From Escherichia coli O157:H7 (GTDB taxonomy: Bacteria > Pseudomonadota > Gammaproteobacteria > Enterobacterales > Enterobacteriaceae), in NCBI RefSeq assembly GCF_013167455.1, contig NZ_CP038328.1: a stretch of DNA of 64,000 nucleotides; one strand, 5' to 3'. Shown piece after piece: positions 1 through 19,916 of the stretch. The position numbers and the translations under genes were made by a program. Under the pieces are notes generated by a model. It was not told the origin of the DNA, ran no database searches, and worked only from the letters and a program-made list of their open reading frames with translations. Within the stretch, counting starts at the first letter, position 1; every line of letters begins with the position of its first letter.

Positions 1-648
1 ATTGAGTTTTCTCCGGGTCGACAATTACCGCAACTTGCTGATCAACTGGCAGCGCTGGGGGAGAGCGATCTGTTGTTTGCCCTCTCGCAACACGCGGTTG
101 CTTTTGCCCAATCACAGCTACATCAGCAAGATCGTAAATGGCCCCGACTACCTAATTATTTCGCCATTGGACGCACCACCGCACTGGCACTACATACCGT
201 AAGCGGACAGAAGATTCTCTACCCGCAGGATCGGGAAATCAGCGAAGTCTTGCTACAATTACCTGAATTACAAAATATTGCGGGCAAACGTGCGCTGATA
301 TTACGTGGCAATGGCGGTCGTGAGCTAATTGGGGATACCCTGACGGCGCGCGGTGCTGAGGTCACTTTTTGTGAATGTTATCAACGATGCGCAATCCATT
401 ACGATGGTGCAGAAGAAGCGATGCGCTGGCAATCCCGCGAGGTGACGACGGTCGTTGTTACCAGCGGTGAAATGTTGCAGCAACTCTGGTCGCTGATCCC
501 ACAATGGTATCGTGAGCACTGGTTACTACACTGTCGACTATTGGTCGTCAGTGAGCGTTTGGCGAAACTCGCCCGGGAACTGGGCTGGCAAGACATTAAG
601 GTCGCCGATAACGCTGACAACGATGCGCTTTTACGGGCATTACAATAA
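1..648 (+). CDS. hemD: uroporphyrinogen-III synthase, 5'-truncated at window edge
   Basis: Frame 1 is open from position 1 to stop at 646-648; translation matches the HemD C-terminal two thirds as I recall it (..LLFALSQHAVAFAQSQL..LRALQ); followed by hemX and hemY in operon order. Confidence 0.9.
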   Translation: MEFSPGRQLPQLADQLAALGESDLLFALSQHAVAFAQSQLHQQDRKWPRLPNYFAIGRTTALALHTVSGQKILYPQDREISEVLLQLPELQNIAGKRALILRGNGGRELIGDTLTARGAEVTFCECYQRCAIHYDGAEEAMRWQSREVTTVVVTSGEMLQQLWSLIPQWYREHWLLHCRLLVVSERLAKLARELGWQDIKVADNADNDALLRALQ

Positions 649-669
649 CTCTCATAACAGGAAGCCATA

Positions 670-1929
670 ATGACGGAACAAGAAAAAACCTCCGCCGTGG
701 TTGAAGAGACCAGGGAGGCCGTGGACACCACGTCACAACCTGTCGCAACAGAAAAAAAGAGTAAGAACAATACCGCATTGATTCTCAGCGCGGTGGCTAT
801 CGCTATTGCTCTGGCGGCGGGCGTCGGTTTGTATGGCTGGGGTAAACAACAGGCCGTCAATCAGACCGCCACCAGCGATGCCCTGGCTAACCAACTGACG
901 GCATTGCAAAAAGCCCAGGAGAGCCAAAAAGTCGAGCTGGAAGGCATTATTAAGCAACAAGCTGCACAGCTTAAGCAGGCGAATCGTCAGCAAGAAACGC
1001 TGGCAAAACAGTTGGATGAAGTCCAACAAAAGGTCGCCACCATTTCCGGCAGCGATGCTAAAACCTGGCTGCTGGCTCAGGCCGATTTTCTGGTGAAACT
1101 CGCCGGACGGAAGCTGTGGAGCGATCAGGACGTCACGACCGCTGCAGCGTTGCTGAAAAGTGCAGACGCCAGCCTGGCGGATATGAATGACCCGAGTCTG
1201 ATTACCGTTCGTCGGGCAATTACCGATGATATCGCCAGCCTTTCTGCAGTATCGCAGGTGGATTATGACGGCATCATCCTTAAGCTTAATCAGCTTTCAA
1301 ATCAGGTAGATAACCTGCGTCTGGCCGATAATGACAGCGATGGTTCGCCGATGGATTCCGACGGTGAAGAGCTTTCCAGTTCCATCAGCGAATGGCGTAT
1401 CAATCTGCAAAAAAGCTGGCAGAACTTTATGGACAACTTCATTACGATTCGCCGTCGTGATGACACCGCCGTACCGCTGTTAGCGCCAAATCAGGATATC
1501 TATCTGCGCGAAAATATTCGCTCTCGCCTGCTGGTCGCAGCACAAGCTGTACCGCGTCACCAGCAAGAGACTTATCGCCAGGCGCTGGAGAACGTCTCCA
1601 CCTGGGTACGTGCTTACTACGATACTGATGATGCCACCACCAAAGCGTTCCTCGACGAGGTAGACCAGTTAAGCCAGCAAAATATCTCGATGGATCTTCC
1701 GGAAACCCTGCAAAGCCAGGCGATGCTGGAAAAACTGATGCAGACTCGCGTGCGTAACCTGCTGGCACAACCGGCAGCGGGGACAACGGAAGCTAAACCT
1801 GCACCTGCACCTGCACCTGCACCTGCACCTGCACCTGCACCTGCACCTGCACCTGCACCTGCACCTGCACCTGCACCTGCACCTGCACCGCAAGCTGATA
1901 CTCCGGCAGCCGCGCCGCAAGGAGAATAA
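670..1929 (+). CDS. hemX: HemX membrane protein with C-terminal Pro-Ala repeat
   Basis: 419 aa ORF with N-terminal TM segment ([21 protein letters not shown]), coiled-coil-like region and (PA)15 tail; sits between hemD and hemY. Confidence 0.9.
1798..1887. repeat. Perfect hexanucleotide tandem repeat (CCTGCA)x15, in frame within hemX
   Basis: Read directly: cct gca repeated 15 times from codon boundary 1798, then ccg caa; encodes (Pro-Ala)15. Confidence 0.95.
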
Positions 1930-1931
1930 CC

Positions 1932-3128
1932 ATGCTAAAAGTGTTATTGCTCTTTGTGTTGCTGATTGCGGGGATCGTGGTTGGCCCGATGATTGCCGGT
2001 CATCAGGGTTATGTGCTGATCCAGACCGACAACTACAATATCGAAACCAGCGTCACGGGCCTGGCGATCATATTGATTCTGGCGATGGTAGTGCTGTTTG
2101 CCATTGAGTGGCTACTGCGGCGGATCTTCCGCACTGGCGCGCACACCCGTGGGTGGTTTGTCGGGCGTAAGCGTCGCCGTGCACGTAAGCAGACCGAACA
2201 GGCGCTGCTGAAACTGGCGGAAGGCGATTATCAGCAAGTTGAAAAGCTGATGGCGAAAAATGCCGATCACGCTGAACAACCGGTGGTGAACTATCTACTG
2301 GCTGCCGAAGCCGCGCAACAACGTGGTGATGAAGCGCGCGCCAACCAACATCTGGAACGCGCAGCGGAGCTGGCCGGCAATGACACCATTCCGGTAGAAA
2401 TCACCCGTGTACGTCTGCAACTGGCCCGTAATGAAAACCATGCTGCACGCCACGGCGTGGATAAGCTGCTGGAAGTTACGCCACGCCATCCGGAAGTATT
2501 ACGTCTGGCGGAACAGGCGTATATCCGCACAGGTGCATGGAGTTCGCTGCTGGATATTATCCCATCAATGGCGAAAGCCCATGTTGGTGATGAAGAACAT
2601 CGTGCAATGCTGGAACAACAGGCATGGATTGGCCTGATGGATCAGGCGCGTGCCGATAACGGTAGCGAAGGTTTGCGTAACTGGTGGAAAAACCAAAGCC
2701 GGAAAACGCGTCATCAGGTAGCGTTGCAGGTGGCAATGGCGGAACATCTTATTGAATGTGACGATCATGATACTGCCCAGCAAATTATCATCGATGGCCT
2801 GAAACGCCAGTACGACGATCGCCTACTGCTGCCGATTCCTCGACTGAAAACAAACAATCCGGAACAGCTGGAAAAAGTGCTGCGCCAGCAAATCAAAAAC
2901 GTCGGCGATCGCCCGCTGTTGTGGAGCACACTGGGCCAGTCACTGATGAAGCACGGAGAATGGCAGGAAGCATCGCTCGCCTTCCGCGCAGCGCTGAAAC
3001 AACGTCCGGACGCCTACGATTACGCATGGCTTGCCGACGCGCTGGACAGACTGCACAAGCCGGAAGAAGCTGCAGCGATGCGTCGCGACGGTTTGATGTT
3101 AACGTTGCAGAACAACCCACCACAGTAG
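1932..3128 (+). CDS. hemY: HemY protein (TPR-like, heme biosynthesis-associated)
   Basis: 398 aa ORF; N-terminal TM helices; start is 3 nt after the hemX stop; length matches HemY. Confidence 0.9.
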   Translation: MLKVLLLFVLLIAGIVVGPMIAGHQGYVLIQTDNYNIETSVTGLAIILILAMVVLFAIEWLLRRIFRTGAHTRGWFVGRKRRRARKQTEQALLKLAEGDYQQVEKLMAKNADHAEQPVVNYLLAAEAAQQRGDEARANQHLERAAELAGNDTIPVEITRVRLQLARNENHAARHGVDKLLEVTPRHPEVLRLAEQAYIRTGAWSSLLDIIPSMAKAHVGDEEHRAMLEQQAWIGLMDQARADNGSEGLRNWWKNQSRKTRHQVALQVAMAEHLIECDDHDTAQQIIIDGLKRQYDDRLLLPIPRLKTNNPEQLEKVLRQQIKNVGDRPLLWSTLGQSLMKHGEWQEASLAFRAALKQRPDAYDYAWLADALDRLHKPEEAAAMRRDGLMLTLQNNPPQ

Positions 3129-3175
3129 TTCCTTCTCACCCGGAGGCAAGCACCTCCGGGACCTTCCTGACACAT

Positions 3176-3382
3176 AAAAAAACGCCTGCTCTTATTACGG
3201 AGCAGGCGTTAAAACAGGTCTGTATGACAACAAGTGGGTGCTTCACTCAACGTTGTGTCCATGGTGTCTGATGAGGCATAAGCGACATCTGTCAGTGGAC
3301 GATAAGCACCGTAAACGGCTCTGCGTCATTCCGGAGTTTATGAGGCACTAAGGCGAACATAAGAGATGGAATGAGCATCTAC
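3176..3382 (-). ncRNA. glmZ: GlmZ small RNA (activator of glmS translation)
   Basis: Reverse complement of 3176..3382 reads GTAGATGCTCATTCCATCTCTTATGTTCGCC...CGCCTGCTCCGTAATAAGAGCAGGCGTTTTTTT, matching the GlmZ sequence as I recall it, including its intrinsic terminator hairpin and U-tract; lies between hemY and aslA as expected. Confidence 0.85.
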
Positions 3383-3806
3383 TCGTTTATTATGCCACAG
3401 AGAATCGGGAAATAACATCCCTTAACACTTGTTATGAGATAATTCTGTAATCCTCTTTGCTTCCTGAGTAATAACTTCCTGAGTGAATATTTAACCTGAG
3501 CTTGATCCTACACATACTTATTATGAATGATAAAATTCATTCAATTAATAACACATATATTAATTGCCGTTAAAACTAAAAACAGCATCAATAATCAACG
3601 CGATATAATAAACCTGCCTTACATATCAACTGCGCCAGAGGTAGGATTGAAAACGCTCTCCTGATTTTTAAATTCATTTCTTGGATAAATAAATAATTTA
3701 TTTTTATCACTATTATTTATGTAATCATCCTGTCAGGGAGAGGGATCTCAATTATCAATGCTTAATTACGTCATCATTTTGTTGACATGAAACCGGAGCA
3801 TTTTGC

Positions 3807-5462
3807 ATGGAATTTTCGTTTTCACCCAAACTTCTTGTTGTTGCTGTCGCCGCCGCTCTTCCTCTCATGGCCAGCGCAGCAGATACCCCGTCAACTGCCA
3901 CCGCGCGCAAAGGCTTTGCCGGATACGATCACCCAAACCAGTATCTGGTTAAACCGGCGACCACTATTGCCGACAACATGATGCCAGTAATGCAGCATCC
4001 GGCGCAGGATAAAGAACCCCAGCAGAAGCTGGCAGAACTTGAGAAAAAAACCGGTAAGAAACCGAATGTGGTTGTTTTCTTGCTGGACGATGTGGGCTGG
4101 ATGGACGTCGGTTTTAACGGTGGCGGCGTGGCGGTGGGTAACCCTACACCAGATATCGACGCCGTTGCCAGCCAGGGGCTGATTTTAACTTCGGCGTATT
4201 CTCAACCAAGCTCTTCCCCAACCCGCGCCACCATTCTCACCGGACAATACTCCATCCACCACGGCATTCTGATGCCGCCAATGTACGGGCAACCGGGCGG
4301 GCTGCAAGGGTTAACCACGCTGCCGCAGTTGCTGCACGATCAGGGCTACGTCACTCAGGCCATCGGGAAATGGCATATGGGGGAAAACAAAGAGTCGCAG
4401 CCGCAGAACGTTGGCTTTGATGATTTCCGTGGCTTTAACTCGGTGTCTGATATGTACACCGAATGGCGCGACGTTCACGTCAATCCGGAAGTGGCCCTGA
4501 GTCCGGACCGTTCTGAATACATCAAGCAATTACCATTTAGCAAAGATGACGTTCATGCGGTGCGCGGCGGCGAACAACAGGCCATTGCCGACATTACGCC
4601 GAAATATATGGAAGATCTGGATCAACGCTGGATGGAATATGGCGTTAAGTTCCTCGACAAGATGGCGAAGAGTGATAAGCCTTTCTTCCTCTATTACGGC
4701 ACTCGCGGCTGTCACTTCGATAACTACCCGAACGCCAAATATGCGGGTAGCTCTCCGGCACGCACCTCGTATGGCGACTGCATGGTGGAAATGAACGATG
4801 TGTTCGCTAATCTGTATAAAGCACTGGAGAAAAACGGTCAGCTTGATAACACGCTGATTGTCTTTACCTCCGATAACGGACCGGAAGCCGAAGTACCGCC
4901 GCACGGACGCACACCGTTCCGTGGTGCGAAAGGATCTACCTGGGAAGGCGGCGTTCGCGTACCGACTTTCGTTTACTGGAAAGGCATGATCCAACCGCGT
5001 AAATCTGACGGTATTGTTGATCTGGCAGATCTCTTCCCAACAGCACTGGATCTGGCGGGGCATCCTGGTGCGAAAGTGGCGAATTTAGTGCCGAAAACCA
5101 CCTTTATCGATGGTGTGGACCAGACATCTTTCTTCCTGGGAACAAATGGTCAGTCTAACCGTAAGGCCGAGCACTACTTCCTCAACGGTAAACTCGCTGC
5201 TGTGCGTATGGATGAATTCAAGTATCACGTCCTGATTCAGCAACCTTACGCTTATACCCAGAGCGGATATCAGGGTGGATTCACCGGCACAGTAATGCAA
5301 ACAGCCGGATCGTCGGTGTTTAACCTCTACACCGATCCGCAGGAGAGCGACTCTATCGGCGTGCGCCATATTCCGATGGGTGTACCGCTACAGACCGAAA
5401 TGCACGCGTATATGGAGATCCTGAAAAAGTATCCACCACGCGCGCAGATTAAATCTGATTAA
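3807..5462 (+). CDS. aslA: arylsulfatase-like sulfatase with signal peptide
   Basis: 551 aa ORF; N-terminal signal peptide ([19 protein letters not shown]); sulfatase-family core region with C-T-P-T-R-type motif ([12 protein letters not shown]); position between glmZ and aslB. Confidence 0.9.
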
Positions 5463-5490
5463 GCCGGCGCTATCGCTGAGATCTGCCTTT

Positions 5491-5595
<105 letters not shown>

Positions 5596-5629
5596 ATCAA
5601 CCGCAGGCGACCACAAAATGGCCGCTTTT

Positions 5630-6865
5630 TTACTTACTCACCACCAGCAAATGCGCCTGCATAATGTCGCTGGCCGGGCGACCGTGCGCCAGCAAATCAG
5701 CCATTGCTTTAAGATATGGCGGTAGATGGCGGAAATAACGCTGATACCCGGCACACAAATAATTCAGTCCCGGTTTGCCGCTGGCATCGAGCATGAAGCG
5801 GTGTTTCGGGCAGCCTCCCCAACATGCTTTTAACACGTTACAACTGCGACACTGCGCCGGTAATTGCTTAAATTTATCTTCACCAAACACCTGCTGTTGC
5901 GGGGAATCGATCATTTCTGCAATTGTTTGCTGGTGCATATTCCCCAGTCGATATTGCGGATAAACATAGTGATCGCAGGCGTAAACGTCGCCATTGTGCT
6001 CAACAATCACCGAGCGCCCACAGGTTGGCTGATGATGGCAAACCGCACCCGGCGCACCGACAAAATTGGCAAACGCCCATTCGATATTCATCACGAAAAT
6101 CTTGCCGACGTCGCGTTTAATCCAGTGGTCGAATATCGCCACCAGAAATTCACCAAATTCATCGGGGCGCACAGACCATTCCGTCAGTTCCCCCTGAATA
6201 TCACCAGGCGCATGTAGTTTCAGTCCTTCGCGGGCAGTCGTTTCATCAGCCAGGCGCTCGACCACCGGAATAAACTGGATGAATTCGACTCCCGCATCGC
6301 ACAAAAAATCATAAACCTGTAACGGTTGCTGCGCGCTGGTGCGGTTGACGCAGACCAGCACGTTATAGTCGACATGATGTTTTTGCAGGAGCGTCAGGGC
6401 ACGCATCACCAGTTTATGCGTGGGTCTGCCGCCTTTTGTCACGCGATATTGATTGTGGATCTCAGCCGGACCATCCAGCGATAACCCAACAAGAAAATGA
6501 TTTTCTGCCAGAAATGCACACCATTCATCATCGAGCAGTACGCCGTTAGTCTGGAAGCTGTTACTTATCTTCCTGCCAGCACCATATTTCGCCTGTAGCG
6601 CCACGGCACGGCGGTAAAACTCCAGCCCGAGTAGCGTTGGTTCGCCGCCCTGCCAGGTAAAAGCCACTTCGTTTTGCGGTTCGCTGGCAGCGATATAGTG
6701 ACGGACATACGCTTCCAGCGTGTCATCGTCCATATGCGTGACTGGCTTTTCGCGGTAAAGGGATTGTTTTTCGAGATAAAAACAGTAGTCACAGTTCAGA
6801 TTACAATCGGAACCGCTCGGTTTCGCCATCACATGAAAAGCACGCGTTGGAACCTGTTGCAGCAT
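5630..6865 (-). CDS. aslB: anaerobic sulfatase-maturating enzyme homologue (radical SAM)
   Basis: ORF 5630..6895; CxxxCxxC radical-SAM motif (CNLNCDYC) near N-terminus; start set at the internal Met (MLQQVPTRAFHVMAKPSG) giving 411 aa. Confidence 0.85.
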   Translation of the reverse strand: MLQQVPTRAFHVMAKPSGSDCNLNCDYCFYLEKQSLYREKPVTHMDDDTLEAYVRHYIAASEPQNEVAFTWQGGEPTLLGLEFYRRAVALQAKYGAGRKISNSFQTNGVLLDDEWCAFLAENHFLVGLSLDGPAEIHNQYRVTKGGRPTHKLVMRALTLLQKHHVDYNVLVCVNRTSAQQPLQVYDFLCDAGVEFIQFIPVVERLADETTAREGLKLHAPGDIQGELTEWSVRPDEFGEFLVAIFDHWIKRDVGKIFVMNIEWAFANFVGAPGAVCHHQPTCGRSVIVEHNGDVYACDHYVYPQYRLGNMHQQTIAEMIDSPQQQVFGEDKFKQLPAQCRSCNVLKACWGGCPKHRFMLDASGKPGLNYLCAGYQRYFRHLPPYLKAMADLLAHGRPASDIMQAHLLVVSK

Positions 6866-6984
6866 GGTCGCTCCTTGCCTGAAGTCATCCTTCAATACGT
6901 TAAGGGCGAAATCATACCGTGGGGCAATGAGTTATTACGGGCGTTTATTGCGAAGGGAGGGTGACGAAATGCACAGAAAACAAA

Positions 6985-7008
6985 AAACCCCGCCGAAGCG
7001 GGGTTCAA
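6985..7008 (-). terminator. Intrinsic terminator downstream of proM (tRNA operon)
   Basis: Minus strand reads CCCCGCTTCGGCGGGG hairpin followed by TTTTTTGTTTT, immediately after the tRNA-Pro 3' end. Confidence 0.7.
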
Positions 7009-7011
7009 AAT

Positions 7012-7088
7012 TGGTCGGCGAGAGAGGATTCGAACCTCCGACCCACTGGTCCCAAACCAGTTGCGCTACCAAGCTGCGCTACTCGCCG
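7012..7088 (-). tRNA. proM: tRNA-Pro (anticodon UGG)
   Basis: Reverse complement gives CGGCGAGTAGCGCAGCTTGGTAGCGCAACTGGTTTGGGACCAGTGGGTCGGAGGTTCGAATCCTCTCTCGCCGACCA, 77 nt with encoded CCA. Confidence 0.95.
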
Positions 7089-7130
7089 AAATACTGCTTT
7101 TTGAATTTTTAGTTCAATTCTTTAAAGTCG

Positions 7131-7217
7131 TGGTGCGAGGGGGGGGACTTGAACCCCCACGTCCGTAAGGACACTAACACCTGAAGCTAGCGCGTCTACC
7201 AATTCCGCCACCTTCGC
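7131..7217 (-). tRNA. leuT: tRNA-Leu (anticodon CAG), duplicated copy
   Basis: Reverse complement gives GCGAAGGTGGCGGAATTGGTAGACGCGCTAGCTTCAGGTGTTAGTGTCCTTACGGACGTGGGGGTTCAAGTCCCCCCCCTCGCACCA, 87 nt; identical to the copy at 7357..7443. Confidence 0.9.
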
Positions 7218-7237
7218 ATTGTCACAACTTCTAATAA

Positions 7238-7314
7238 TGGGGTGGCTAATGGGATTCGAACCTCCGACCCACTGGTCCCAAACCAGTTGCGCTACCAAGC
7301 TGCGCTACTCGCCG
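7238..7314 (-). pseudogene. Chimeric tRNA: tRNA-Pro 5' body fused to tRNA-His 3' T-arm/acceptor strand; predicted non-functional
   Basis: Reverse complement gives CGGCGAGTAGCGCAGCTTGGTAGCGCAACTGGTTTGGGACCAGTGGGTCGGAGGTTCGAATCCCATTAGCCACCCCA; 5' 60 nt equal proM, 3' end equals hisR; junction in the shared GGTTCGAATCC; acceptor and T stems no longer base-pair. Confidence 0.85.
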
Positions 7315-7356
7315 AAATACTGCTTTTTGAATTTTTAGTTCAATTCTTTAAAGTCG

Positions 7357-7443
7357 TGGTGCGAGGGGGGGGACTTGAACCCCCACGTCCGTAAGGACAC
7401 TAACACCTGAAGCTAGCGCGTCTACCAATTCCGCCACCTTCGC
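7357..7443 (-). tRNA. leuT: tRNA-Leu (anticodon CAG)
   Basis: Same 87 nt sequence as 7131..7217; follows hisR after a 20 nt spacer as in the canonical operon. Confidence 0.95.
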
Positions 7444-7463
7444 ATTGTCACAACTTCTAATAA

Positions 7464-7540
7464 TGGGGTGGCTAATGGGATTCGAACCCACGACAACTGG
7501 AATCACAATCCAGGGCTCTACCAACTGAGCTATAGCCACC
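7464..7540 (-). tRNA. hisR: tRNA-His (anticodon GUG)
   Basis: Reverse complement gives GGTGGCTATAGCTCAGTTGGTAGAGCCCTGGATTGTGATTCCAGTTGTCGTGGGTTCGAATCCCATTAGCCACCCCA. Confidence 0.95.
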
Positions 7541-7597
7541 ACTACAAATCTTGTTACGCGGTATTACTACCACCGCAGCTCAAGCGCCGGGACTAAA

Positions 7598-7674
<77 letters not shown>

Positions 7675-7679
7675 TTAGC

Positions 7680-7745
7680 GCCGTTGCGGGGGTGGATAAT
7701 ACGGACTTCCCCCCCCTCTGTCTAGTCCCTTTTTAAATAAATTGC
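7680..7745 (-). promoter_or_regulatory. Probable promoter of the argX-hisR-leuT-proM operon
   Basis: Minus strand upstream of argX has a TATTAT -10-like hexamer followed by a GC-rich discriminator (CCACCCCCGC), as in stringently controlled stable-RNA promoters; -35 is not clear. Confidence 0.4.
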
Positions 7746-7776
7746 GCGTTTGGTTACGGTTTGTGCGTTTTGCTGC

Positions 7777-9162
7777 TTATTCCTCCAGTTTATGCGCTTT
7801 CCCGTGGCGATTAAGGCCAAAAACTTTATAAATCGCCGTCACCGCCAGCATAAAGATGATGCCAACAAACAGCGACATACGCGTATCTTCATTAAAGTAC
7901 ATGCCGATCAAAACGCAAATCAGGAATGCCATTGTTACGTAGTTGGCCCACGGGAACAGGATTGAGCGGAACGGATGGCTGGCAATCGCCGCTTTATGTG
8001 CACGCCGAAAACGCAGCTGGCTTATCAATATCACAAACCATGGCACCATCCCCGGAAGCACGCTGGCACTGTAGACGTAGACAAACACACGCTGCGGATT
8101 GGGAATGATGTAGTTCAGGCATGAGCCAATTAGCAGAATAGCAATAGATACTGCCACACCCGCAACCGGTACGCCGTGACGGGAAACTTTCGCCATCGCC
8201 GCCGGTAACTGACGGTTTTTCGCCAGTGCGTAGAGCATACGTCCGCAACTGTACATGCCGCTGTTACAGCCAGAGAGCGCAGCCGTCAGCACCACAAAGT
8301 TGATAATGCCCGCCGCTGCGGTAATACCGATTTTGGCAAAAGTCAGTACGAACGGGCTGCCGTTGCTGCCTATTTCATTCCACGGGAAGATGGTGACGAT
8401 AACGAAAATCGCGCCAACGTAGAAAATCAGGATCCGCCACAGCACCTTGCCTACGGCACTGCGCAGCGTCACCTGCGGATTCTTCGCTTCACCGGCAGTA
8501 ATGCCAATCAGCTCCACGCCCTGGTAGGACGCCACCACAATACACAGCGCGGTCAGGAACCCTTTCCAGCCACCCGCAAAGAAACCGCCATGCTCTGTGA
8601 GATTGCTAAAACCAATCGACTGCCCGCCATTGCCAAAGCCAAAGAAAATCACGCCCAGGCCAATGACAATCATCACGATAATCGTGGTGACTTTGATCAT
8701 CGCGAACCAGAACTCGATTTCGCCGTACAACCGCACCGCTGCCAGATTCGCCAACGCCACCAGCGCCACTGCGATCAATGCGGGTATCCACTGCGCCATC
8801 TCCGGGAACCAGAACTGGACATAAACGCCAATGGCGGTGATTTCAGAGATCCCCACCGCCATCCACATAAACCAGTAAGACCAGGCGGTGAGATAGCCAA
8901 AGAACGGGCTCATATAACGATGCGCATAAACGGCGAACGAACCGGTAACCGGTTCGAGGAACAACATTTCGCCCATTGAACGCATGATGAAAAAGACGAA
9001 CAGCCCGGCGATGATATAGGCCAACAATACGGATGGCCCGGCCCATTTCAGGGTACTGGCGGCCCCCATAAACAGGCCGACGCCAATGGTGCCCCCCAGG
9101 GCGATGAGTTCGATATGTCGAGCTTCCAGCCCACGCTGTAGCTCTGGTTTGTTATCTGCCAT
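7777..9162 (-). CDS. yifK: amino-acid permease (APC family)
   Basis: 461 aa ORF, 12 predicted TM segments, APC-family N-terminal region ([27 protein letters not shown]). Confidence 0.9.
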
Positions 9163-9352
9163 AAATCCTCGTGTTGTGTTTGCATGCTTTCCGGTGTTAC
9201 CGGTTATCGTTATGGGTACATCGAGTGTTGCGAATGTTTTCGTAATTCAGGAGAAATGGCAAATAAAGCATTAAAAATTTGAATGCTTTGTGTAATAAAA
9301 AAGCAGACAGGCGACGGAGTGACCACTCCGTCGCTTTACAAAGAGAGGAAAA

Positions 9353-10093
9353 TCAGAGGTTGCCGGTGTAATGCCAGCGTAAATAACGCAGCAAACGAAG
9401 CTGACGCTTAATGCGGCTCGGCTGCGAAAGCAGGCGGTAGAGCCACTCCAGCCCCAGCGTTTGCCAGATTTTCGGTGCGCGTTTTACGTGACCGGTGAAA
9501 ACATCGTAAGTCCCGCCAACGCCCATATACAGCGCATCTGGATGCACCAGACGGCAGTCGCGCATGAAGATCTCCTGCTTTGGCGATCCCATCGCAACGG
9601 TGACGATTTGCGCTCCGCTGGCATGAATGCGTTCAAACAGCGCCTGACGCTGCTCGGGTTTAAAATAACCATCCTGACTGCCAACGATATTCACATTCCA
9701 CTGGTTGCGCAGTTTAGCTTCAGTTTGCGCCAGCACTTCAGGTTTACCGCCCACAAGAAATACCGTCGTCCCTTCTTTGCCTGCGCGCGCCATCAGCTCT
9801 TCCCAGAGATCGGCACCGGCAACGCGGGAAACCTGCGCCTGCGGGTACTTTTTACGTACTGAACGTACAACGCTGATGCCATCCGCATATTTAAATTCGG
9901 CAGCGTTAATTAACTCCCTGACCTCGGCGTTCTCTTCAATGGTCAGCATTTTTTCAGCATTAATGGCAACCAGCGTTCCCTGCTTAAGCTGCCCGTCAGC
10001 AAACAGATAATCGAGGGCATGCTGCATATCACGCCAACCAATCAACTGTAAGCCACGCAGCGTATAGGTCGGTGCCGTGGTGTTGTTATTCAT
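9353..10093 (-). CDS. wecG: UDP-N-acetyl-D-mannosaminuronic acid transferase (ECA biosynthesis)
   Basis: 246 aa ORF at distal end of the ECA cluster; WecG/TagA glycosyltransferase family; length matches. Confidence 0.9.
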
Positions 10094-10095
10094 TG

Positions 10096-11448
10096 TTATC
10101 CTTCAACCTGCGTCCGGAGCGATGATTTTGTACGTTTATGAATGAGTCCGGCGCTTTCAAAAAGCCAGTACAACAGTTTTGCGATCATCAGACATGCGCC
10201 GAAGACCACGATAAAAAAGACCACGCGTGAGACAAACGAATCCAGCCCTTCACGCGCCAGCACGATCATATTGAAGATCGCCCCAAAGCAGAAACTGTGC
10301 AATATCGCAGCCTTATAGCGATTAGTTTCGCGGTTGCCCAGCTCATACAGCCAGTCGAACCATTTGATGATCAGTCCAACCACAATCGCCCCGAGCGGGA
10401 TGAACAACGCGCCGCCCATCACCACCAGTGAGCCTATAAGCGTAGGCGAGATCGCCAGTCCGGAGTGGTTATTCAGCACTTCCCAGGTAAAGTAGTTGGC
10501 TGAGTTCAGCACCATACTCGGGCGACCCGGCCACAGCCAGGAAGGGATAAAGACATAGAAATCGCGGACAATTGGCGCCAGGCCCTGGAAGTCGATGTTG
10601 TCGTAGTTCTGCAACAGCAACGCCAGATTCTCCCACGGCGAGAAGGTGTCGCGAGTGAGATAGAGAAACGTATAGAACGCTTCATCGCCGCTCACATTCA
10701 TTCCATAGCGTTTTAGCGCCAGCCAGAACATGCCAACAATCCCCAGCACGCCCGCCGCCGCCAGCATCCACAACGAAATCCAGCCGCGAATAATGCCAAT
10801 AAACAGGAAGATAGCGAATGCGATGATGATATTGGCGCGAGTGCCGCCGACAATCATATAAGTCAGCAAGCCAAAGGCGACCGTGCTGACGAGGAAAAAC
10901 AGCCACGCTTTGCTGTCCTGGCGCAGAAAGTAGACCACCAGCATCGCCGGGATGAAAAAGTAAAAGAAGCGTTTTAACGCCACGCCGGAGACTTCACTGG
11001 AAAAGATCTGACTGTAGGAGTTAAGCCGGAACAGCAAAAAGCCGTTGTGCATGAAGAAGATGCCGACGCTTACCAGCGCGATACCCATCAGGATCACCCA
11101 CGTAAGATTGGTTTCCACGCGGTTCATGGTAAACAGCGGACGGCGCGGTACATCAGCAACGCGTTTGCGTAGGCGGGTTTTGTAGGTGACGTAGTAAACC
11201 GCGTAGAAGCAGCCCGCAGAAAGCAACGCCTGCAACAGGATTTCTGGCGGCGCGACACCAACATCAAAGCGAAACACCAGCACGCTGGTCAGCGGGAAGC
11301 CAAAGAAAAAGGTGAGCAGAAACAGCAATGAAAAGAATACATTGAAGTTAAAGCGCACACGACGAAACTCAAACCAGGTCAGCGTGGCAATAAACAGCGT
11401 GCAGAGCAGCCAGACAACAAACAGGCCACTGAATTGCAGCAGACTCAT
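10096..11448 (-). CDS. wzyE: ECA polymerase
   Basis: 450 aa polytopic membrane protein; 4 bp start/stop overlap with wecF; position in ECA cluster. Confidence 0.85.
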
Positions 11449-12524
11449 GCGACCTCCCCGGCGGCAATCGCCAACGCCCGCTGCCAGCCTTGTAGATAGT
11501 TAGGGCTAAAGAAGGCAATGGTGTTTTTATCCACCGACGCCAACTGGCGCTGCGCTTCACGCACAATATCCTCGTTGAGATCGTCGGTAGTAAACAGCAC
11601 CGGTAAATGCTGTTCCGTCATATCCTGCCAGAACGGATTTTCCCGGTTAAGCACACAAGGAATGCCCGCCTGAATCAGTAAGCACAGCGTACCAATGCCC
11701 TGCTGGCGGGCAAAAATAAAGTAACCAAGATCGCACTGACGAAGTAGCGTCAGATAGGCGTCAAATTCCAGTTTTTCACTCAGAACTTGCAGATTTTCTT
11801 CGCTGAATAACTCCAGCCCCGCCTGACGAACTTCCTCGATGTACGCTTCGTTATGAGGCGGATATCCCATCGGCACCACCACTTTTACCGTATCGCCAAA
11901 TTGCTGATGAACGGCGCGCAAGGCAGCAATATGCTCATTGCTGCGGTCGCCGGAGTTCCCCACCAGAATGGTCATTTTCCCTTCACGTTGCCGATCGTTC
12001 GCCATCGTATTGAGAGAAGCATCCATCCGCGTCGGGAAGTACAGCAGTTCGCCCCGCACCTTTGGGTGCGTTTTGGCAAAAAAGCTCAAATCACCACGGG
12101 TGGCAAATACACAGCCGACTCGCTTTTGCGCCAGGCGACGTAGTGGGTAAAAAAGCTTATATCTCAAGCCACTGGAAAGCTCGTACAGGTCTGCCCCCCA
12201 GATATGCCAGTAAAACTGGCTGGGCTTAATGCCACCACTCAGCAGAGCCAGCCACAGTGTGGGATTGAACTGACCGTGGAAGAAAAAACGCTGCTGACGG
12301 TTAGCTTTTGCTTTCGCGATGACCGCTTCCGCCAGCGATTTTTTCCCAGGGAAAAATTGCACAGAAAGCGCCGGACAGCTATCACTTAAGCCGTCGTCCT
12401 TGCCAACAACCATAAACTCGCGCGCGTGCTCGCTCGTCGCGGCCAGCGCGTCATTGAAAAACCGCAAAACGGTTCGGTTATGGTGAGGGATATCCGATCC
12501 CAGTACGTGAATCAGTACAGTCAT
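11445..12524 (-). CDS. wecF: TDP-N-acetylfucosamine:lipid II N-acetylfucosaminyltransferase
   Basis: 359 aa ORF in ECA cluster; overlaps wzxE stop by 4 bp. Confidence 0.85.
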
Positions 12525-13771
12525 GCCCGCCTACGCCAGAGTAAAAACACGCCACAACAAAGAGAAAAATAGACGATATAGGTTGCCATATATGCCTGTG
12601 CCGCGCCCAGCGCGCCGTGCGTAGGGATTAGCCAGTGGGCAAATACCATCAATAAAGTGAACTGGCTGACTTCCGCCAGAATATAAAACCGCAGTGAAGC
12701 TTTGGCGATCACCAGATAACCAAAGACATAAGCGCCCACTTTTAACACATCACCCACCAACTGCCAGGCAAAGAGATCGCGCATAGCGGTAAATTTATTC
12801 GACAACAGCAGCCAGATAGCAAAATCACGCAGCAACCAGACGGTAAAACTCGCCGCCGCCACTGCCGGTAAGACGAATTTCAGCGATTTAACCACTTCCC
12901 GGGTGATATCGCGCTTTTCCGTTAGCCGCGACAACGTGGGCAGCAAATATACGCTGAACGATGCCGTAATAAATTGCAGGTAGGCATCGGAAATACTGCT
13001 CACCCCTTGCCAGATCCCCACCTCATCCCAGCTATACTGCGCCGCCAGCAGTTTACGCATCATGATGTAAGCAACAGGCAAGGTCACCGACGTAATCAAC
13101 GTCATGAGCGTAAATTTGCTCAACTGCCCTGCCAGACCGTTATCCCAGCTGGGTTTCAGATAGCTTAACGGGATAGCACCACGCTTAATTAACATGACGG
13201 CGGCAGGAATCACCACCAGCGCGGGAATCAACGCCAGACCCAGCAACGCCCCTTCATATCCGCCCAAACGGTAACTGACGTAGTACGCAAGAACGCCAAT
13301 CAAGCTGCCAACAATCAGAGATAACGCATTACCTGCGGCATCGCGAAAGCCTTTCATCAACGCCAGTAACAGGTTGCCCCAGGCGATCCCCATTTGCACC
13401 AGCGCCACTAAACGCACCAGCCCCTGATAGTCGTGATTACCAAACAATCCCAAGCTGATTGGCGCAGCTGCCAGCACAAAAACCAGCGCCATCAGCGTAG
13501 AGAAGCCAAGTACCATCGCTGATGAAGTGCCGACCACGCGGCGCAGCTGTTGCGGATTATCATGGTACTGGGCAACGTATTTGGTTACACCGTTAAAGAT
13601 GCCAGCCCCGGCAAGCACGCCGAGCACGGTAATCAACTGGCGGAAATTTGCCGCCAGCCCAAGCCCCGCCGGACCAAATGACACCGCCAGCAACTTACCG
13701 ACCAGTAACCCGGCACCAATCTTGACCAGTGTACTGGCCGCCGTCCACAAGGACGCTTTTGCCAACGACAT
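12521..13771 (-). CDS. wzxE: ECA lipid III flippase
   Basis: 416 aa polytopic membrane protein (Wzx/MOP family) in ECA cluster. Confidence 0.85.
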
Positions 13772-13772
13772 A

Positions 13773-14903
13773 TCAGGAGAAGTAGTTCAACAAAGTCGCA
13801 ATTACCGTACGCTGATTGACGGGCGACAGGTTGTAGAACAGCGGCAGGCGCAGCAGGCGCTCGCTCTCTTTGGTGGTGTAGCGATCTTCACCGTGGAACT
13901 CACCAAAGCGTTCCCCCGCAGGGCAACCGTGCAGCGGAATGTAATGGAACACCGCCATGATTTCCGCTTCTTTCAGAAAGTTAATCAACGCGCTCCGGTC
14001 ACCAATATCCCGCAGTTTAATGTAAAACATATGCGCGTTCTGCAAGCAGCCATCGGGAATCGACGGCAGCTCGATACGCCCGGCTTTCGCCAGAGGTGCT
14101 AACGCATCGTAGTAGTTTTGCCACAGCGCCAGACGTTGCTGGTTGATACGATCCGCTGCTTCCAGTTGCGCCCACAGGTACGCAGCTTGCAGATCGGACA
14201 TCAAATAGCTGGAGCCGATATCGCGCCAGGTATATTTATCGACCTGACCACGGAAGAACTGGCTGCGGTTTGTGCCTTTTTCACGGATGATCTCGGCTCG
14301 TTCGATCAACGCTTTATCGTTAATCAGCGTCGCGCCGCCTTCACCGCCCGCCGTGTAGTTTTTGGTTTCATGGAAGCTAAAGCAGCCAATATGACCAATG
14401 GTTCCCAGTGCACGCCCTTTGTAAGTGGACATCACGCCCTGAGCAGCATCTTCCACCACAAACAGATTATGCTTTTTCGCCAACGCCATAATGGTGTCCA
14501 TTTCGCAGGCCACGCCCGCGTAATGCACCGGCACGATAACGCGCGTTTTGTCGGTGATCGCCGCTTCAATCAACGTTTCGTCGATGTTCATGGTGTCCGG
14601 GCGAACATCCACAAAAACGATTTTTGCGCCACGCAGCACAAAGGCATTGGCGGTGGAGACAAAGGTGTAGCTCGGCATGATCACTTCATCGCCAGGCTGG
14701 ATATCGAGCAGCAGCGCCGCCATCTCCAGCGAAGCGGTGCAGGACGGCGTCAGTAACACTTTGGCGCTGCCAAAACGTTGCTCCAGCCACTGCTGGCAGC
14801 GACGGGTAAAACCGCCATCGCCACACAGTTTGCCGCTACCCATTGCCGACTGCATATAGTCGAGTTCGGTTCCCACCACCGGCGGTGCGTTAAATGGAAT
14901 CAT
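13773..14903 (-). CDS. wecE: dTDP-4-amino-4,6-dideoxygalactose transaminase (PLP-dependent)
   Basis: 376 aa ORF; DegT/DnrJ/EryC1 aminotransferase family features; position. Confidence 0.9.
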   Translation of the reverse strand: MIPFNAPPVVGTELDYMQSAMGSGKLCGDGGFTRRCQQWLEQRFGSAKVLLTPSCTASLEMAALLLDIQPGDEVIMPSYTFVSTANAFVLRGAKIVFVDVRPDTMNIDETLIEAAITDKTRVIVPVHYAGVACEMDTIMALAKKHNLFVVEDAAQGVMSTYKGRALGTIGHIGCFSFHETKNYTAGGEGGATLINDKALIERAEIIREKGTNRSQFFRGQVDKYTWRDIGSSYLMSDLQAAYLWAQLEAADRINQQRLALWQNYYDALAPLAKAGRIELPSIPDGCLQNAHMFYIKLRDIGDRSALINFLKEAEIMAVFHYIPLHGCPAGERFGEFHGEDRYTTKESERLLRLPLFYNLSPVNQRTVIATLLNYFS

Positions 14904-14907
14904 GTGA

Positions 14908-15582
14908 TCACCTGTATAACCAGTACGCGGTGCTTTCTACATTCGCACCACTTTGTATGTATCGTTTAAGCGCGGCGGTGTTGCCCATTTGGGTCGCCAC
15001 CCGCAAAGTTGTTTTACCGCGAGCATACGCCCAGTTTAGCGCCGTTTGCATCAGCTCAGCACCTGCACCGCGTCCAGCCAGCAGGCCAATTCGCGCATCT
15101 GTAGCATTGAGTTCCCGTAAAGAGACATAACCGCGAATATCGCCGGACGCCGCACGTAAAATCAGACATTGATGATCAAAGGTGCCGCGCACGGCATTTT
15201 CAATCCACTGTGCATAAAAGCGACTGCTGGCGTCAGGCGCATACCACGGCGCACGAAAACGGCTTTGCGCAAATGCGGCGCTGGCTAACTGACGTAATGC
15301 GGGAATATCGGTCTCTTGTGCCACTACAGCACCGCTATCACTGGCATTGTTCACGGGTAGCGCCAAATCAACTTCACCTTCTACCAGGGAGAATCCCAGC
15401 TGTTGCAGGGCATCCAGTTCCCCCGTATTTGATGCCGCAATTTTGGCCTGCACCCGTGACCACGGCGCTAACGCGTCTGGCGTCAGGAACGGTGCTTCAG
15501 ACGTAATGCGCACGATGGCGCTGTTAACACCAAAGAAGGCGTTTTCCCAGGTTAGTGGCTCAATACTGGCGCGGACGGGCAC
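14908..15582 (-). CDS. wecD: dTDP-fucosamine acetyltransferase (GNAT)
   Basis: 224 aa ORF; 23 bp overlap with rffH; position in ECA cluster. Confidence 0.8.
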
Positions 15583-16441
15583 GAAGTAACTCCAGCAGAT
15601 ATTGGCCGTAGCCAGTTTTCGCTAATGAACTGGCAGCACGCTTCACACCCTCGTCATCGAGCCAGCCGTTACGCCAGGCGATCTCTTCCAGGCAGGCAAT
15701 CTTAAAGCCCTGGCGTTTTTCCACCGTCTGTACAAAGGTGCTGGCTTCAATCAGGCTGTCGTGAGTGCCAGTGTCCAGCCAGGCAAATCCGCGCCCGAGC
15801 AGTTCAACGGTCAGGTTGCCCGCCTCGAGGTACATCTGGTTGATGGAGGTAATCTCCAGTTCACCACGCTCCGACGGCTTCACCTGCTTTGCGTACTCCA
15901 CGACTTTACTGTCGTAGAAATAAAGCCCGGTCACCGCCCAGTTTGATTTCGGCTGTTTTGGCTTTTCTTCCAGCGAGATAGCGCGGAAATTATCGTCAAA
16001 CTCCACCACGCCAAAGCGTTCCGGGTCCATCACCTGATAGCCAAAAACCGTCGCCACTTCCGTGCGCGCCGCAACATGACGCAGCTTCGGACTGAAGCCC
16101 TGACCGAAGAAGATGTTATCGCCCAGCACCAGACAAGAAGGTTCACCATTAAGGAAGGTTTCACCGATGATAAAGGCCTGCGCCAGACCGTCCGGGCTGG
16201 GCTGTTCGGCATATTCCAGCTGGATACCGAACTCACTACCATCGCCCAGCAGGCGCTGGAAATAACCTTTATCTTCCGGCGTAGTGATGATGAGAATTTC
16301 GCGGATACCGGCCAGCATCAGCACCGACAGCGGATAGTAAATCATTGGCTTATCGTAAATCGGCAACAGTTGCTTCGATACGCCGCGCGTAATCGGATGC
16401 AATCGGGTACCGGAACCGCCCGCCAGGATAATACCTTTCAT
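15560..16441 (-). CDS. rffH: glucose-1-phosphate thymidylyltransferase 2
   Basis: 293 aa; N-terminal [18 protein letters not shown] nucleotidyltransferase signature. Confidence 0.9.
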
Positions 16442-16459
16442 GTTTGCCTCCGCTGAAAA

Positions 16460-17527
16460 TTAGCCTTTCAGACCTAAACGCTCGCCCTGATAGCTGCCGT
16501 CCTGCACCTGCTTCCTCCAGCTTTCATTAGCCAGATACCACTGCACCGTTTTACGCATTCCACTTTCAAAGGTTTCCTGCGGCAGCCAGCCAAGTTCACG
16601 GGCAATTTTCGAAGCATCAATGGCATAGCGCAGATCATGCCCCGGACGGTCAGCGACAAAGGTGATCAAGTCACGATAATGCACCACGCCTTGCGGCTTG
16701 TTCGGAGCCAGTTCTTCCAGCAGCTCGCAAATGGTTTCCACAACATCGAGATTCTTACGCTCGTTGTGACCACCAATATTATAGGTTTCACCGACTTTCC
16801 CGGTGGTCGCCACGCAATACAGCGCGCGGGCGTGATCTTCAACATACAGCCAGTCACGGATTTGCTGCCCGTTGCCATATACCGGTAGCGGTTTACCCGC
16901 CAGCGCGTTGAGGATCATCAGCGGGATCAGTTTTTCCGGAAAGTGGTAAGGACCGTAGTTATTCGAGCAGTTGGTGATAAGCGTTGGCAGACCATAGGTT
17001 CGCAGCCAGGCGCGCACCAGATGGTCGCTGCTGGCTTTTGACGCGGAATAAGGGCTGCTCGGCGCATACGGCGTGGTTTCGGTGAAGAAATCATCCGTCG
17101 AGTGCAGGTCACCATATACTTCGTCAGTGGAGATATGATGAAAACGGAACGCTGATTTTTTATCTTCCGTCAGCGCATTCCAGTAAGCCCGCGCCGCTTC
17201 AAGCAATGTATAAGTCCCGACAATGTTGGTTTCAATAAACGCTGCCGGGCCGTCAATAGAACGGTCAACATGGCTTTCGGCTGCCAGATGCATGACACAG
17301 TCTGGCTGATGCTCAGTGAATACGCGCGCCAGTTCTGCCCGATCGCAGATATCAACTTTCTCAAAGGCAAAGCGCTCGCTTTGCGCGACCGGTGCCAGCG
17401 ACATCAGGTTTCCGGCGTAGGTCAGCTTATCGACCACTACCACCGCGTCGCTCGTTTCGTTGATGATATAACGCACCAGCGCCGAGCCAATAAACCCGGC
17501 ACCGCCTGTTATCAGAATCTTTCTCAT
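16460..17527 (-). CDS. rffG: dTDP-glucose 4,6-dehydratase 2
   Basis: 355 aa; N-terminal Rossmann motif [19 protein letters not shown]; SDR family. Confidence 0.9.
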
Positions 17528-18789: not shown

Positions 18790-19916
18790 AGTGATATCCG
18801 ATTATTTTTTAACGCTTCCAGAATGCGAGAGCATGCCTGACCATCACCATACGGGTTATGGGCGCGGCTCATAGTTTGATATTCGTTTTCGTCTTTTAAA
18901 AGACGCGTCACTTCCTCGACAATTCGCTGCTTATCCGTGCCTACCAGACGCACCGTACCCGCCGTCACCGCTTCCGGACGCTCAGTGGTATCGCGCATCA
19001 CCAGCACCGGTTTCCCCAGCGAAGGCGCTTCTTCCTGAATGCCGCCTGAGTCGGTCAAAATCAGCCAGGCGTGGTTCATCAGCCAGACAAACGGTAAATA
19101 CTCCTGAGGATCGATCAGAATGACATTTTTCACATGCCCCAGAATGCGATTGACCGGCTCTCTGACGTTCGGGTTGAGATGCACCGGATAGACAATCTGG
19201 ATGTCCTGGTGCGTGGTGGCGATGTCTGCCAGCGCGTGGCAGATTTCTTCAAAGCCACGACCGAAGCTTTCACGCCTGTGACCGGTCACCAGAATCATCT
19301 TTTTATCGGGGTCGATAAACGGGTAATTTGCCGCAAGTTCTGAACGCAGCGTGTCGCTGCTCATCACCTGGTCACGCACCCATAACAGTGCATCAATGAC
19401 TGTATTACCGGTAATGAAGATTCGGCTATCTGCAACGTTTTCACGCAGCAAGTTTTGCCGGGAAGTTTCGGTTGGAGAGAAATGATACATCGCCAGATGC
19501 CCGGTCAATGTACGGTTAGCCTCTTCCGGCCACGGCGAATAGAGATCGCCCGTGCGTAAACCAGCCTCAACGTGACCAACAGGAATACGCTGATAAAACG
19601 CCGCCAGGCTGGTTGCCAGCGTCGTCGTTGTGTCGCCGTGAACCAGCACGACGTCTGGTTTGAACTCGGCAAGAATAGGTTTTAGCCCTTCCAGAATCCG
19701 ACAGGTTATCTCTGTCAGGCCCTGTCCTGGCTGCATTATGTTGAGATCGTAGTCAGGTACAATGGAAAAGAGTTTCAGCACCTGATCGAGCATCTCCCGA
19801 TGCTGCGCAGTGACGCAAACTTTAGCCTCAAAAAAAGGATCTTTTGCCAACGCATGCACCAACGGAGCCATCTTGATGGCTTCCGGGCGCGTACCAAATA
19901 CAGTCAGTACTTTCAC
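18786..19916 (-). CDS. wecB: UDP-N-acetylglucosamine 2-epimerase
   Basis: ORF extends to 19958, but the recognised N-terminus (M)[17 protein letters not shown] begins at a GTG at 19916 (376 aa). Confidence 0.85.

What the first reader, a model, noticed from the sequence alone, without database searches (positions are those of the whole stretch)
1798..1887. In-frame (CCTGCA)x15 hexanucleotide repeat encoding a (Pro-Ala)15 tract at the hemX C-terminus
A perfect 90 bp microsatellite lies inside the hemX coding sequence. Because the unit is 6 bp, slipped-strand changes would alter Pro-Ala linker length without breaking the frame. My recollection is that K-12 HemX is about 393 aa versus 419 aa here, consistent with roughly 13 extra units, but I cannot verify that. 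The antisense frame produces an artefactual RC-repeat ORF (1669..1920).
Basis: partly seen in the sequence, partly recalled or inferred. Interest (0 to 1): 0.4.

Follow-up and report, generated by a model that had tools for sequence, protein, structure and literature searches.

The report
Known E. coli typing repeat CVN014
The perfect (CCTGCA)x15 repeat at the end of hemX is real, but it is the already described hypervariable tandem repeat CVN014 used to fingerprint E. coli strains, so it is an ordinary, well-known feature.

Summary
Window 1798-1887 holds 15 perfect CCTGCA units, in frame in hemX (670-1929). They encode (Pro-Ala)15 at residues 377-406 of 419.

The published primers of the generic E. 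coli MLVA locus CVN014 match exactly at 1774-1793 and 1951-1974. The 201-bp amplicon gives allele 15 with the published formula, so this is CVN014, reported as the most variable locus of that scheme.

In 5,425 complete E. coli genomes the locus is always present. Every array read at sequence level was a perfect array. Unit counts run from 2 to 25, with a median of about 6. One strain has lost the tract by an in-frame deletion.

O157:H7 genomes that are 100.0% identical to the window over 20 kb differ only by 15 versus 7 units.

The tract lies outside the Pfam HemX domain, in a low-confidence, coil-like C-terminal tail. That tail is low-complexity and variable in length across the family.

Best explanation: replication slippage in a tolerated, disordered tail, largely neutral. 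Array length does not change the predicted accessibility of the hemY ribosome-binding site. Already known; low interest.

The parts
1798..1887 (+). (CCTGCA)x15 perfect hexanucleotide VNTR, which is MLVA locus CVN014 allele 15. It encodes (Pro-Ala)15, HemX residues 377-406.
   Evidence: allele arithmetic
670..1929 (+). hemX CDS (419 aa plus stop)
   Evidence: ORF; RefSeq annotation of the identical record, WP_032102053.1; NCBIfam PRK10920, E=9e-217
775..840 (+). Single hydrophobic segment [22 protein letters not shown] (aa 36-57), the predicted membrane anchor. Three Lys lie just before it, so the N-terminus is probably cytoplasmic and the rest periplasmic (inference from the positive-inside rule).
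   Evidence: sequence; the AF2 long helix starts at residue 36
1057..1758 (+). Pfam HemX domain PF04375 (aa 130-363). The repeat lies outside it.
   Evidence: E=5.7e-108; AF2 pLDDT is mostly 93-98 in this helical domain, apart from two loops (aa 223-230 and 259-269) below 50
1768..1926 (+). C-terminal Ala/Pro-rich tail (aa 367-419) with no predicted secondary structure and pLDDT about 57. It contains the repeat.
   Evidence: tails compared across the family
1774..1793 (+). Exact site of the published CVN014 primer GCAGCRGGGACAACGGAAGC
   Evidence: primer taken from PMC8143711 Table 1
1951..1974 (-). Exact site of the published CVN014 primer TCCCCGCAATCAGCAAMACAAAGA, inside hemY. The amplicon 1774-1974 is 201 bp, and (201-111)/6 = 15.
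1888..1926 (+). Last 13 codons, [13 protein letters not shown]. They include a degenerate unit CCGGCA (1903-1908), which is the right-hand boundary of the NCTC11023 deletion.
1919..1924 (+). AAGGAG, the likely ribosome-binding site of hemY, inside the last codons of hemX. This may explain why ...PQGE is conserved in Enterobacteriaceae.
   Evidence: inference
1932..3128 (+). hemY CDS, starting 2 nt after the hemX stop codon
1669..1920 (-). Antisense ORF (83 aa) with Cys-Arg repeats. It is a mechanical by-product of the repeat and not a gene.
   Evidence: no annotation on this strand in the full-length identical record

Best explanation
This is a coding hexanucleotide VNTR, the locus named CVN014 in generic E. 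coli MLVA typing. Its copy number changes by slipped-strand mispairing during replication. The unit is 6 bp and sits in a disordered, probably periplasmic C-terminal tail of the membrane-anchored protein HemX, outside the conserved HemX domain. Gains and losses therefore only lengthen or shorten a (Pro-Ala)n stretch and are tolerated, so the locus drifts rapidly and largely neutrally. Shown here: the identity with CVN014, the polymorphism, the purity of the arrays, the intact reading frames, and the position outside the domain. Inferred: slippage as the mechanism, neutrality, and the periplasmic location.
For: Identity with CVN014: both published primers match exactly and only once in the window, and the amplicon formula gives 15.

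Polymorphism: two systematic samples of 60 out of 5,425 complete genomes give 2-17 and 2-23 units, with a median of about 6 and Nei diversity of about 0.9. The maximum found is 25 units. 1,225 of 5,425 genomes have at least 9 units. The published CVN014 allele frequencies, 2-12 with a mode at 6, agree (PMC5217547). CVN014 is reported as the most polymorphic or variable locus (PMC3519732; PMC3877011).

Speed: at least nine O157:H7 genomes are 100.0% identical to window 1-20000 except for a 48-bp difference, giving 7 rather than 15 units. Other genomes with flanks at least 99.8% identical carry 4, 5, 16, 17 and 18 units.

Slippage signature: all 14 retained-array alleles read at sequence level, and the four other Escherichia species, have perfectly pure arrays, and differences are whole units only. 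The single strands can form TGCA-stem hairpins (DNA fold z=-6.0 and -2.8). Measured rates for other 6-bp O157 VNTRs are 4.4e-5 to 1.8e-3 per generation and rise above 13 units (PMC3777172).

Tolerance: every fetched allele has an intact annotated hemX CDS. NCTC11023 lacks the tract entirely through a 27-bp in-frame deletion relative to K-12. A 1-unit allele also exists (P0122).

Location: the tract lies outside PF04375 and in a coil with pLDDT about 57. In 128 representatives sharing roughly 30-50% identity with the query, homology ends near residue 360-370. Their tails vary in length (median 18 aa, some over 100 aa), and the longest ones are low-complexity.

Related repeats: the hemX tail also carries a CCTGCA array in Citrobacter gillenii and a 9-bp GCACCTGCC array in C. 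sedlakii.

Dispensability: the Keio hemX deletion strain is viable (PMC12282077).
Against: Neutrality is inferred from tolerance, not measured. The allele distribution is not flat (modes at 2 and about 6, few above 17). That could reflect mutation bias and phylogeny, or weak selection on length. The mutation rate of this particular locus was not found in the papers I could read. The function of HemX is unknown, so a length-dependent role cannot be excluded. The periplasmic location of the tail rests on the positive-inside rule and on my recollection of global topology data. It was not tested here.
Confidence: 0.9

Rival explanations
1. The (Pro-Ala)n tract is a semi-rigid spacer whose length is functionally tuned. 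It would set how far the C-terminus of an inner-membrane, Mic60-like protein reaches across the periplasm, and the VNTR would give lineages an adjustable length under selection.
For: Pro-Ala repeats are known to be extended and stiff (established knowledge from myosin light-chain and 2-oxo-acid dehydrogenase E2 linkers; the weak PDB hits of the tail are to such linkers). HemX is described as a distant Mic60 homologue lacking the mitofilin domain (bioRxiv 10.1101/2022.06.14.496148). The array has persisted across Escherichia species and into Citrobacter. A hemX deletion changes gentamicin sensitivity.
Against: Only 13 low-complexity residues follow the tract, so there is no folded domain to position. 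Natural lengths span 0 to 25 units, roughly 0 to 155 Å if extended. They differ between genomes that are otherwise identical over 20 kb, which argues against a tight length requirement. Salmonella lacks the repeat. All units use identical codons, as expected from recent slippage rather than selection at the protein level.
Confidence: 0.06
2. Array length modulates expression of the downstream gene hemY, through mRNA structure or translational coupling, so the VNTR would act as a tuning knob for hemY.
For: hemY starts 2 nt after the hemX stop, and its likely ribosome-binding site lies within the last hemX codons, 31 nt after the array. The array RNA and DNA can self-pair.
Against: In silico, the unpaired probability of the region from the ribosome-binding site to the AUG is 0.17 for every n from 0 to 25. 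No base-pairing probability links the array to that region. The distance from the hemX stop to the hemY start is unchanged by unit number. Pro-Ala is not a known ribosome-stalling motif (established knowledge: EF-P dependence needs consecutive prolines).
Confidence: 0.03
3. The count of 15 units is an assembly error, or the array is a phase-variation (on/off) contingency switch.
For: Short-read assemblies do sometimes break at this array: some database proteins end inside it (P0114, P0126). Simple-sequence repeats drive phase variation in other bacteria (established knowledge).
Against: Three independent complete genomes carry the identical 15-unit allele within 20 kb of 100.0% identity, and 90 bp is shorter than usual reads. 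The unit is a multiple of 3. Every allele examined keeps hemX in frame and none is flagged as a pseudogene, so no on/off switching is possible.
Confidence: 0.01

Closest known systems
CVN014, locus of the generic E. coli MLVA scheme (GECM-7/GECM-10; Lindstedt et al. 2007, as cited in PMC8143711, PMC3877011, PMC3519732, PMC5217547)
   Same: It is the same locus. Both primers match exactly, the unit is 6 bp, the offset is 111 bp, and the allele ranges and frequencies agree.
   Different: Nothing differs. None of the open-access papers searched contains both 'hemX' and 'MLVA' in connection with this locus. The link to the HemX Pro-Ala tail is a small annotation detail rather than a discovery.
6-bp VNTRs of the O157:H7 MLVA schemes (O157-3, -9, -10, -17, -19, -25, -37; Vhec and TR loci)
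   Same: Same unit size, the same slippage behaviour, and high within-serotype variability. The measured rates are 4.4e-5 to 1.8e-3 per generation and are higher for alleles above 13 units.
   Different: I could not show that the hemX array is one of the O157-named loci. The papers held do not give their genomic positions.
Pro-rich extended segments of envelope proteins (TonB Glu-Pro/Lys-Pro spacer, Omp[10 protein letters not shown] hinge) and Ala-Pro linkers of 2-oxo-acid dehydrogenase E2 chains (from established knowledge)
   Same: Low-complexity Pro-X repeats that are likely extended. The tail gives weak sequence hits to an E2 linker region.
   Different: Those segments join two functional domains. 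The HemX tract is followed by only 13 residues, and its length is unconstrained in nature (0-25 units).
Tail repeats of hemX in other Enterobacteriaceae
   Same: Citrobacter gillenii has four CCTGCA units at the same position. E. albertii, E. whittamii and two unnamed Escherichia species have 2-7 perfect units.
   Different: C. sedlakii uses a 9-bp unit, GCACCTGCC, with one to three Pro-Ala-Ala repeats among its alleles. Salmonella has no repeat.

Membership tests
MLVA locus CVN014 | Both published primers flank the repeat | tested here: met
   Exact unique matches at 1774-1793 (+) and 1951-1974 (-); 0 expected by chance (primers)
MLVA locus CVN014 | 6-bp unit with a 111-bp non-repeat offset (allele = (product-111)/6) | tested here: met
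   The 201-bp amplicon gives 15. The formula equals the number of perfect units in the 13 alleles checked.
MLVA locus CVN014 | Highly polymorphic copy number among E. coli strains | tested here: met
   2-25 units in complete genomes, Nei diversity about 0.9. The literature agrees.
Slipped-strand VNTR / microsatellite | Alleles differ by whole units with conserved flanks and pure arrays | tested here: met
Slipped-strand VNTR / microsatellite | Elevated per-generation mutation rate at this locus | not testable with these tools
   Only indirect evidence: the unit number differs among genomes 100.0% identical over 20 kb. Rates for other 6-bp O157 loci are in PMC3777172.
Phase-variable contingency locus | Unit changes shift the reading frame or promoter spacing and switch expression | tested here: not met
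   The unit is 6 bp. The hemX CDS is intact at every allele length, from 384 to 439 aa.
HemX family (Pfam PF04375 / NCBIfam PRK10920) | Significant match to the family profile | tested here: met
   PF04375 E=5.7e-108 over aa 130-363; PRK10920 E=9e-217. The repeat lies outside the Pfam domain.
Uroporphyrinogen-III C-methyltransferase (the product name used in RefSeq) | A tetrapyrrole methylase catalytic domain (Pfam TP_methylase; family identity from established knowledge) | tested here: not met
   The Pfam scan at E<=0.01 finds only PF04375 plus two sub-threshold membrane-protein hits. The AF2 model is a membrane helix, a long helix and a helical bundle. The product name appears to be historical.
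Inter-domain rigid Pro-rich spacer (TonB/OmpA type) | Connects two folded or functional domains | tested here: not met
   Only 13 residues follow, with no predicted structure and pLDDT about 50-57

The most novel reading that the evidence does not exclude
HemX, a Mic60-like inner-membrane protein of unknown function, might use its (Pro-Ala)n tail as an adjustable periplasmic reach. The VNTR would then let E. coli lineages retune an envelope or respiratory property, for example membrane potential and aminoglycoside uptake, on epidemiological time-scales. In that case CVN014 would be a functional tuning knob rather than a neutral marker.
Probability: 0.05. Interest if true: 0.45.

Novelty: already known. 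Interest (0 to 1): 0.12.

Why it matters
The practical value is already exploited, because CVN014 is the most discriminating locus of generic E. coli MLVA. This check adds three things. It makes explicit that the marker sits in the disordered C-terminal tail of HemX as a Pro-Ala tract. It gives a view of allele sizes from two systematic samples of 5,425 complete genomes (2-25 units, plus one deletion allele). It shows that the array is shared by other Escherichia species and by Citrobacter. For annotation, hemX length differences between strains should be read as VNTR alleles, not as errors. Short-read assemblies may break at or miscount long alleles.

Tried and rejected
1. I looked for an O157-specific MLVA name for this array (Vhec, TR, O157-n, EHC loci). 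The held papers list the loci without genomic positions, and Lindstedt 2003 and Vogler 2006 are not held. This remains unresolved.

2. Literature searches combining hemX with MLVA or VNTR found only an unrelated SNP in Salmonella hemX.

3. Sequence search of HemX against PDB chains gave only weak low-complexity hits of the tail, with the best E=0.003.

4. A Foldseek search of the AF2 model against PDB gave nothing with E<=0.001, so the fold gave no functional lead.

5. The idea that the array masks the hemY ribosome-binding site was tested by partition-function folding for n=0-25 and showed no effect.

6. The exact 419-aa protein is not in the 15-billion-protein collection, so cluster look-up could not be used for a census. 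Allele counts were instead derived from BLAST spans. The long-allele searches used a synthetic query that I built with 40 units but that the tool read as 634 nt, i.e. 39 units.

7. A contingency-locus reading was rejected because the unit is a multiple of 3.

Full report
**Observation.** Window 1798-1887 contains CCTGCA repeated 15 times without a mismatch. Tandem Repeats Finder reports period 6, 15.5 copies, 100% matches and score 186. Apart from a 226-bp duplication of tRNA genes, nothing else in the 64-kb window exceeds 2.8 copies. The array is in frame in the 419-aa ORF 670-1929. It encodes ...TEAK(PA)15[13 protein letters not shown]. The ORF lies between the end of hemD (to 648) and hemY (1932-3128). 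RefSeq annotates it as hemX in the identical record of E. coli O157:H7 strain Z885. The antisense ORF 1669-1920 exists and reads as Cys-Arg repeats. It is not annotated in the full-length identical record, and I treat it as a by-product of the repeat.

**Where the window comes from.** Window 1-20000 is 100.0% identical, in a single aligned piece, to three complete genomes: O157:H7 Z885, O157:H7 Z1626 and CEC13002. The 15-unit count is therefore reproduced in independent assemblies.

**What the repeat is.**
- The primers published for locus CVN014 of the generic E. coli MLVA scheme are given in Table 1 of PMC8143711.
- They match exactly and uniquely at 1774-1793 (+) and 1951-1974 (-).
- The amplicon is 201 bp. 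The published formula (product-111)/6 gives 15, which equals the number of perfect units.
- It varies from 2 to 11 within ST131 (PMC3407997).
- The finding is therefore a known typing marker.

**Polymorphism in complete genomes.**
- A 901-bp query around the array matched 5,425 of 5,426 complete E. coli genomes.
- In a systematic sample of 60 genomes, the span in the record differed from the query by multiples of 6 bp, corresponding to 2-17 units.
- A synthetic query with a longer array ranks genomes by array length. I built it with 40 units, but the tool read it as 634 nt, i.e. 39 units.
- That query showed a maximum of 25 units (strain SD134209), about 19 genomes with 19 or more units, and 1,225 genomes with 9 or more.
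- A second systematic sample gave 2-23 units with a median of 6.
- The 15-unit allele of the window therefore lies in the upper few percent of lengths.
- I fetched 15 alleles and read them. Fourteen retain the array, covering n=2,3,4,5,7,8,12,13,14,15,17,23,25. Every array is perfectly pure, and the annotated hemX CDS length is 389+2n residues.
- Strain NCTC11023 has lost the whole array and 15 further bases. This is a 27-bp in-frame deletion relative to K-12, lying between the array and a degenerate downstream unit CCGGCA.
- Protein databases also hold a 1-unit allele and rare interrupted alleles with Thr in place of Ala.
- The published allele frequencies for CVN014, 2-12 with a mode at 6, match this picture (PMC5217547).

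**Rate.** At least nine O157:H7 genomes are 100.0% identical to the first 20 kb of the window except for 48 missing bases, which gives 7 units instead of 15. Other genomes with flanks at least 99.8% identical have 4, 5, 16, 17 or 18 units. The array therefore changes faster than a single substitution accumulates in 20 kb. I found no direct measurement for this locus. For other 6-bp VNTRs of O157:H7, serial passage gave 4.4e-5 to 1.8e-3 changes per generation. Those changes involved whole units, and the rates were higher above 13 units (PMC3777172). The single strands of the array can fold into hairpins built from the TGCA palindromes (z=-6.0 and -2.8 against shuffles). That would stabilise slipped intermediates, which is an inference.

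**The protein context.**
- Pfam places the HemX domain PF04375 at residues 130-363 (E=5.7e-108). The tract at residues 377-406 lies outside it.
- No methyltransferase domain is detected, although RefSeq names the product uroporphyrinogen-III C-methyltransferase.
- An AlphaFold2 model built on 70 homologues shows a long helix from residue 36, which begins with the single hydrophobic segment at 36-57.
- The model then has a confident helical domain (130-366, pLDDT mostly 93-98, apart from two loops at 223-230 and 259-269 below 50).
- From residue 367 to the end there is no secondary structure, and pLDDT is about 57.
- Neither sequence nor fold search found a solved relative.
- In the 1.84-billion-protein representative library, 5,930 proteins match HemX at E<=0.001. 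In most of the top 150, the match ends near query residue 355-370.
- The residues beyond the domain vary in length (median 18, some over 100). The longest tails are low-complexity, rich in Pro, Glu, Thr, Ser, Gln, Ala and Lys, and some carry Pro-X repeats.
- Within Enterobacteriaceae the tail is always Ala/Pro-rich and ends in PQGE, which overlaps the likely hemY ribosome-binding site AAGGAG at 1919-1924.
- Perfect CCTGCA arrays of 2-7 units occur at the same position in E. albertii, E. whittamii and two unnamed Escherichia species.
- Citrobacter gillenii has four units. C. sedlakii has a 9-bp unit GCACCTGCC repeated three times in the locus read; its alleles carry one to three Pro-Ala-Ala repeats. 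Salmonella has none.
- The hemX tail is thus a recurrent site of in-frame repeat expansion.

[quoted passage not shown] They also report that the Keio hemX deletion is viable and less sensitive to gentamicin (PMC12282077). Its molecular role is not established.

**Explanation.** The best-supported reading is that slipped-strand mispairing adds and removes whole 6-bp units in a tail that tolerates any length from 0 to at least 25 Pro-Ala pairs, so the locus drifts. I tested one rival, that array length alters hemY translation through mRNA structure, by partition-function folding of constructs with 0-25 units. The unpaired probability of the region from the ribosome-binding site to the AUG stayed at 0.17, and no pairing with the array was predicted. 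A phase-variation role is excluded by the 6-bp unit and the intact frames. A tuned-spacer role is unlikely for three reasons: nothing folded follows the tract, near-identical genomes differ widely in length, and all units use the same two codons. It cannot be excluded without experiments.

**Verdict.** The feature is the already known VNTR CVN014. Interest is low.

Noticed in passing
window 7026-7488 (tRNA genes 7012-7674, - strand): A perfect 226-bp tandem duplication (2.0 copies, 100% identity) gives a second tRNA-Leu(CAG)/tRNA-Pro(UGG) pair. The operon here reads Arg-His-Leu-Pro-Leu-Pro, six tRNA genes. From memory, K-12 has four genes (argX-hisR-leuT-proM).
   Followed up: partly
window 670-1929 (hemX product name): RefSeq names HemX 'uroporphyrinogen-III C-methyltransferase'. 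Pfam finds only the HemX domain PF04375 and no methylase domain, and the AF2 model is a membrane-anchored helical protein. The name looks like a historical misnomer.
   Followed up: partly
L005 (NZ_LS483297.1, E. coli NCTC11023), locus about 640-700: This natural allele lacks the whole Pro-Ala array through a 27-bp in-frame deletion relative to K-12. It also has a C>T change under the CVN014 primer (GGGGATAACGG), so the strain would probably give a null or odd CVN014 result.
   Followed up: yes
H150 (NZ_CP043852.1) and H176 (NZ_CP033020.1): Two complete genomes both labelled E. coli ATCC 8739 carry 8 and 4 units. Their flanks differ in identity to the query (97.4% vs 98.7%), which suggests that one record is not the same strain.
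   Followed up: no
P0001 (485 aa, ENA assembly): This HemX variant has an internal 66-residue tandem duplication (HQEETYRQ...TEAKPA twice) that ends at the repeat. It is either a real duplication mediated by the array region or a misassembly.
   Followed up: no
P0088 (435 aa, JGI; Citrobacter-like), P0114 and P0126: One homologue is frameshifted inside the Ala/Pro tail and reads on into hemY. Two partial proteins stop inside the array at contig ends. This shows that the region is error-prone or breaks assemblies in short-read data.
   Followed up: no
(genome-contig scan): The exact pattern (two units plus the right flank) hit E. albertii, E. whittamii and two Escherichia sp. representatives, but no record titled E. 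coli. I did not find out why. The representative genome may have a variant flank or a different allele.
   Followed up: no
L021 1424-1462 (Citrobacter sedlakii hemX tail): A 9-bp in-frame repeat GCACCTGCC x3 sits at the position of the E. coli 6-bp array in this locus. C. sedlakii proteins carry one, two or three Pro-Ala-Ala repeats, so it is probably a VNTR in that species too.
   Followed up: partly
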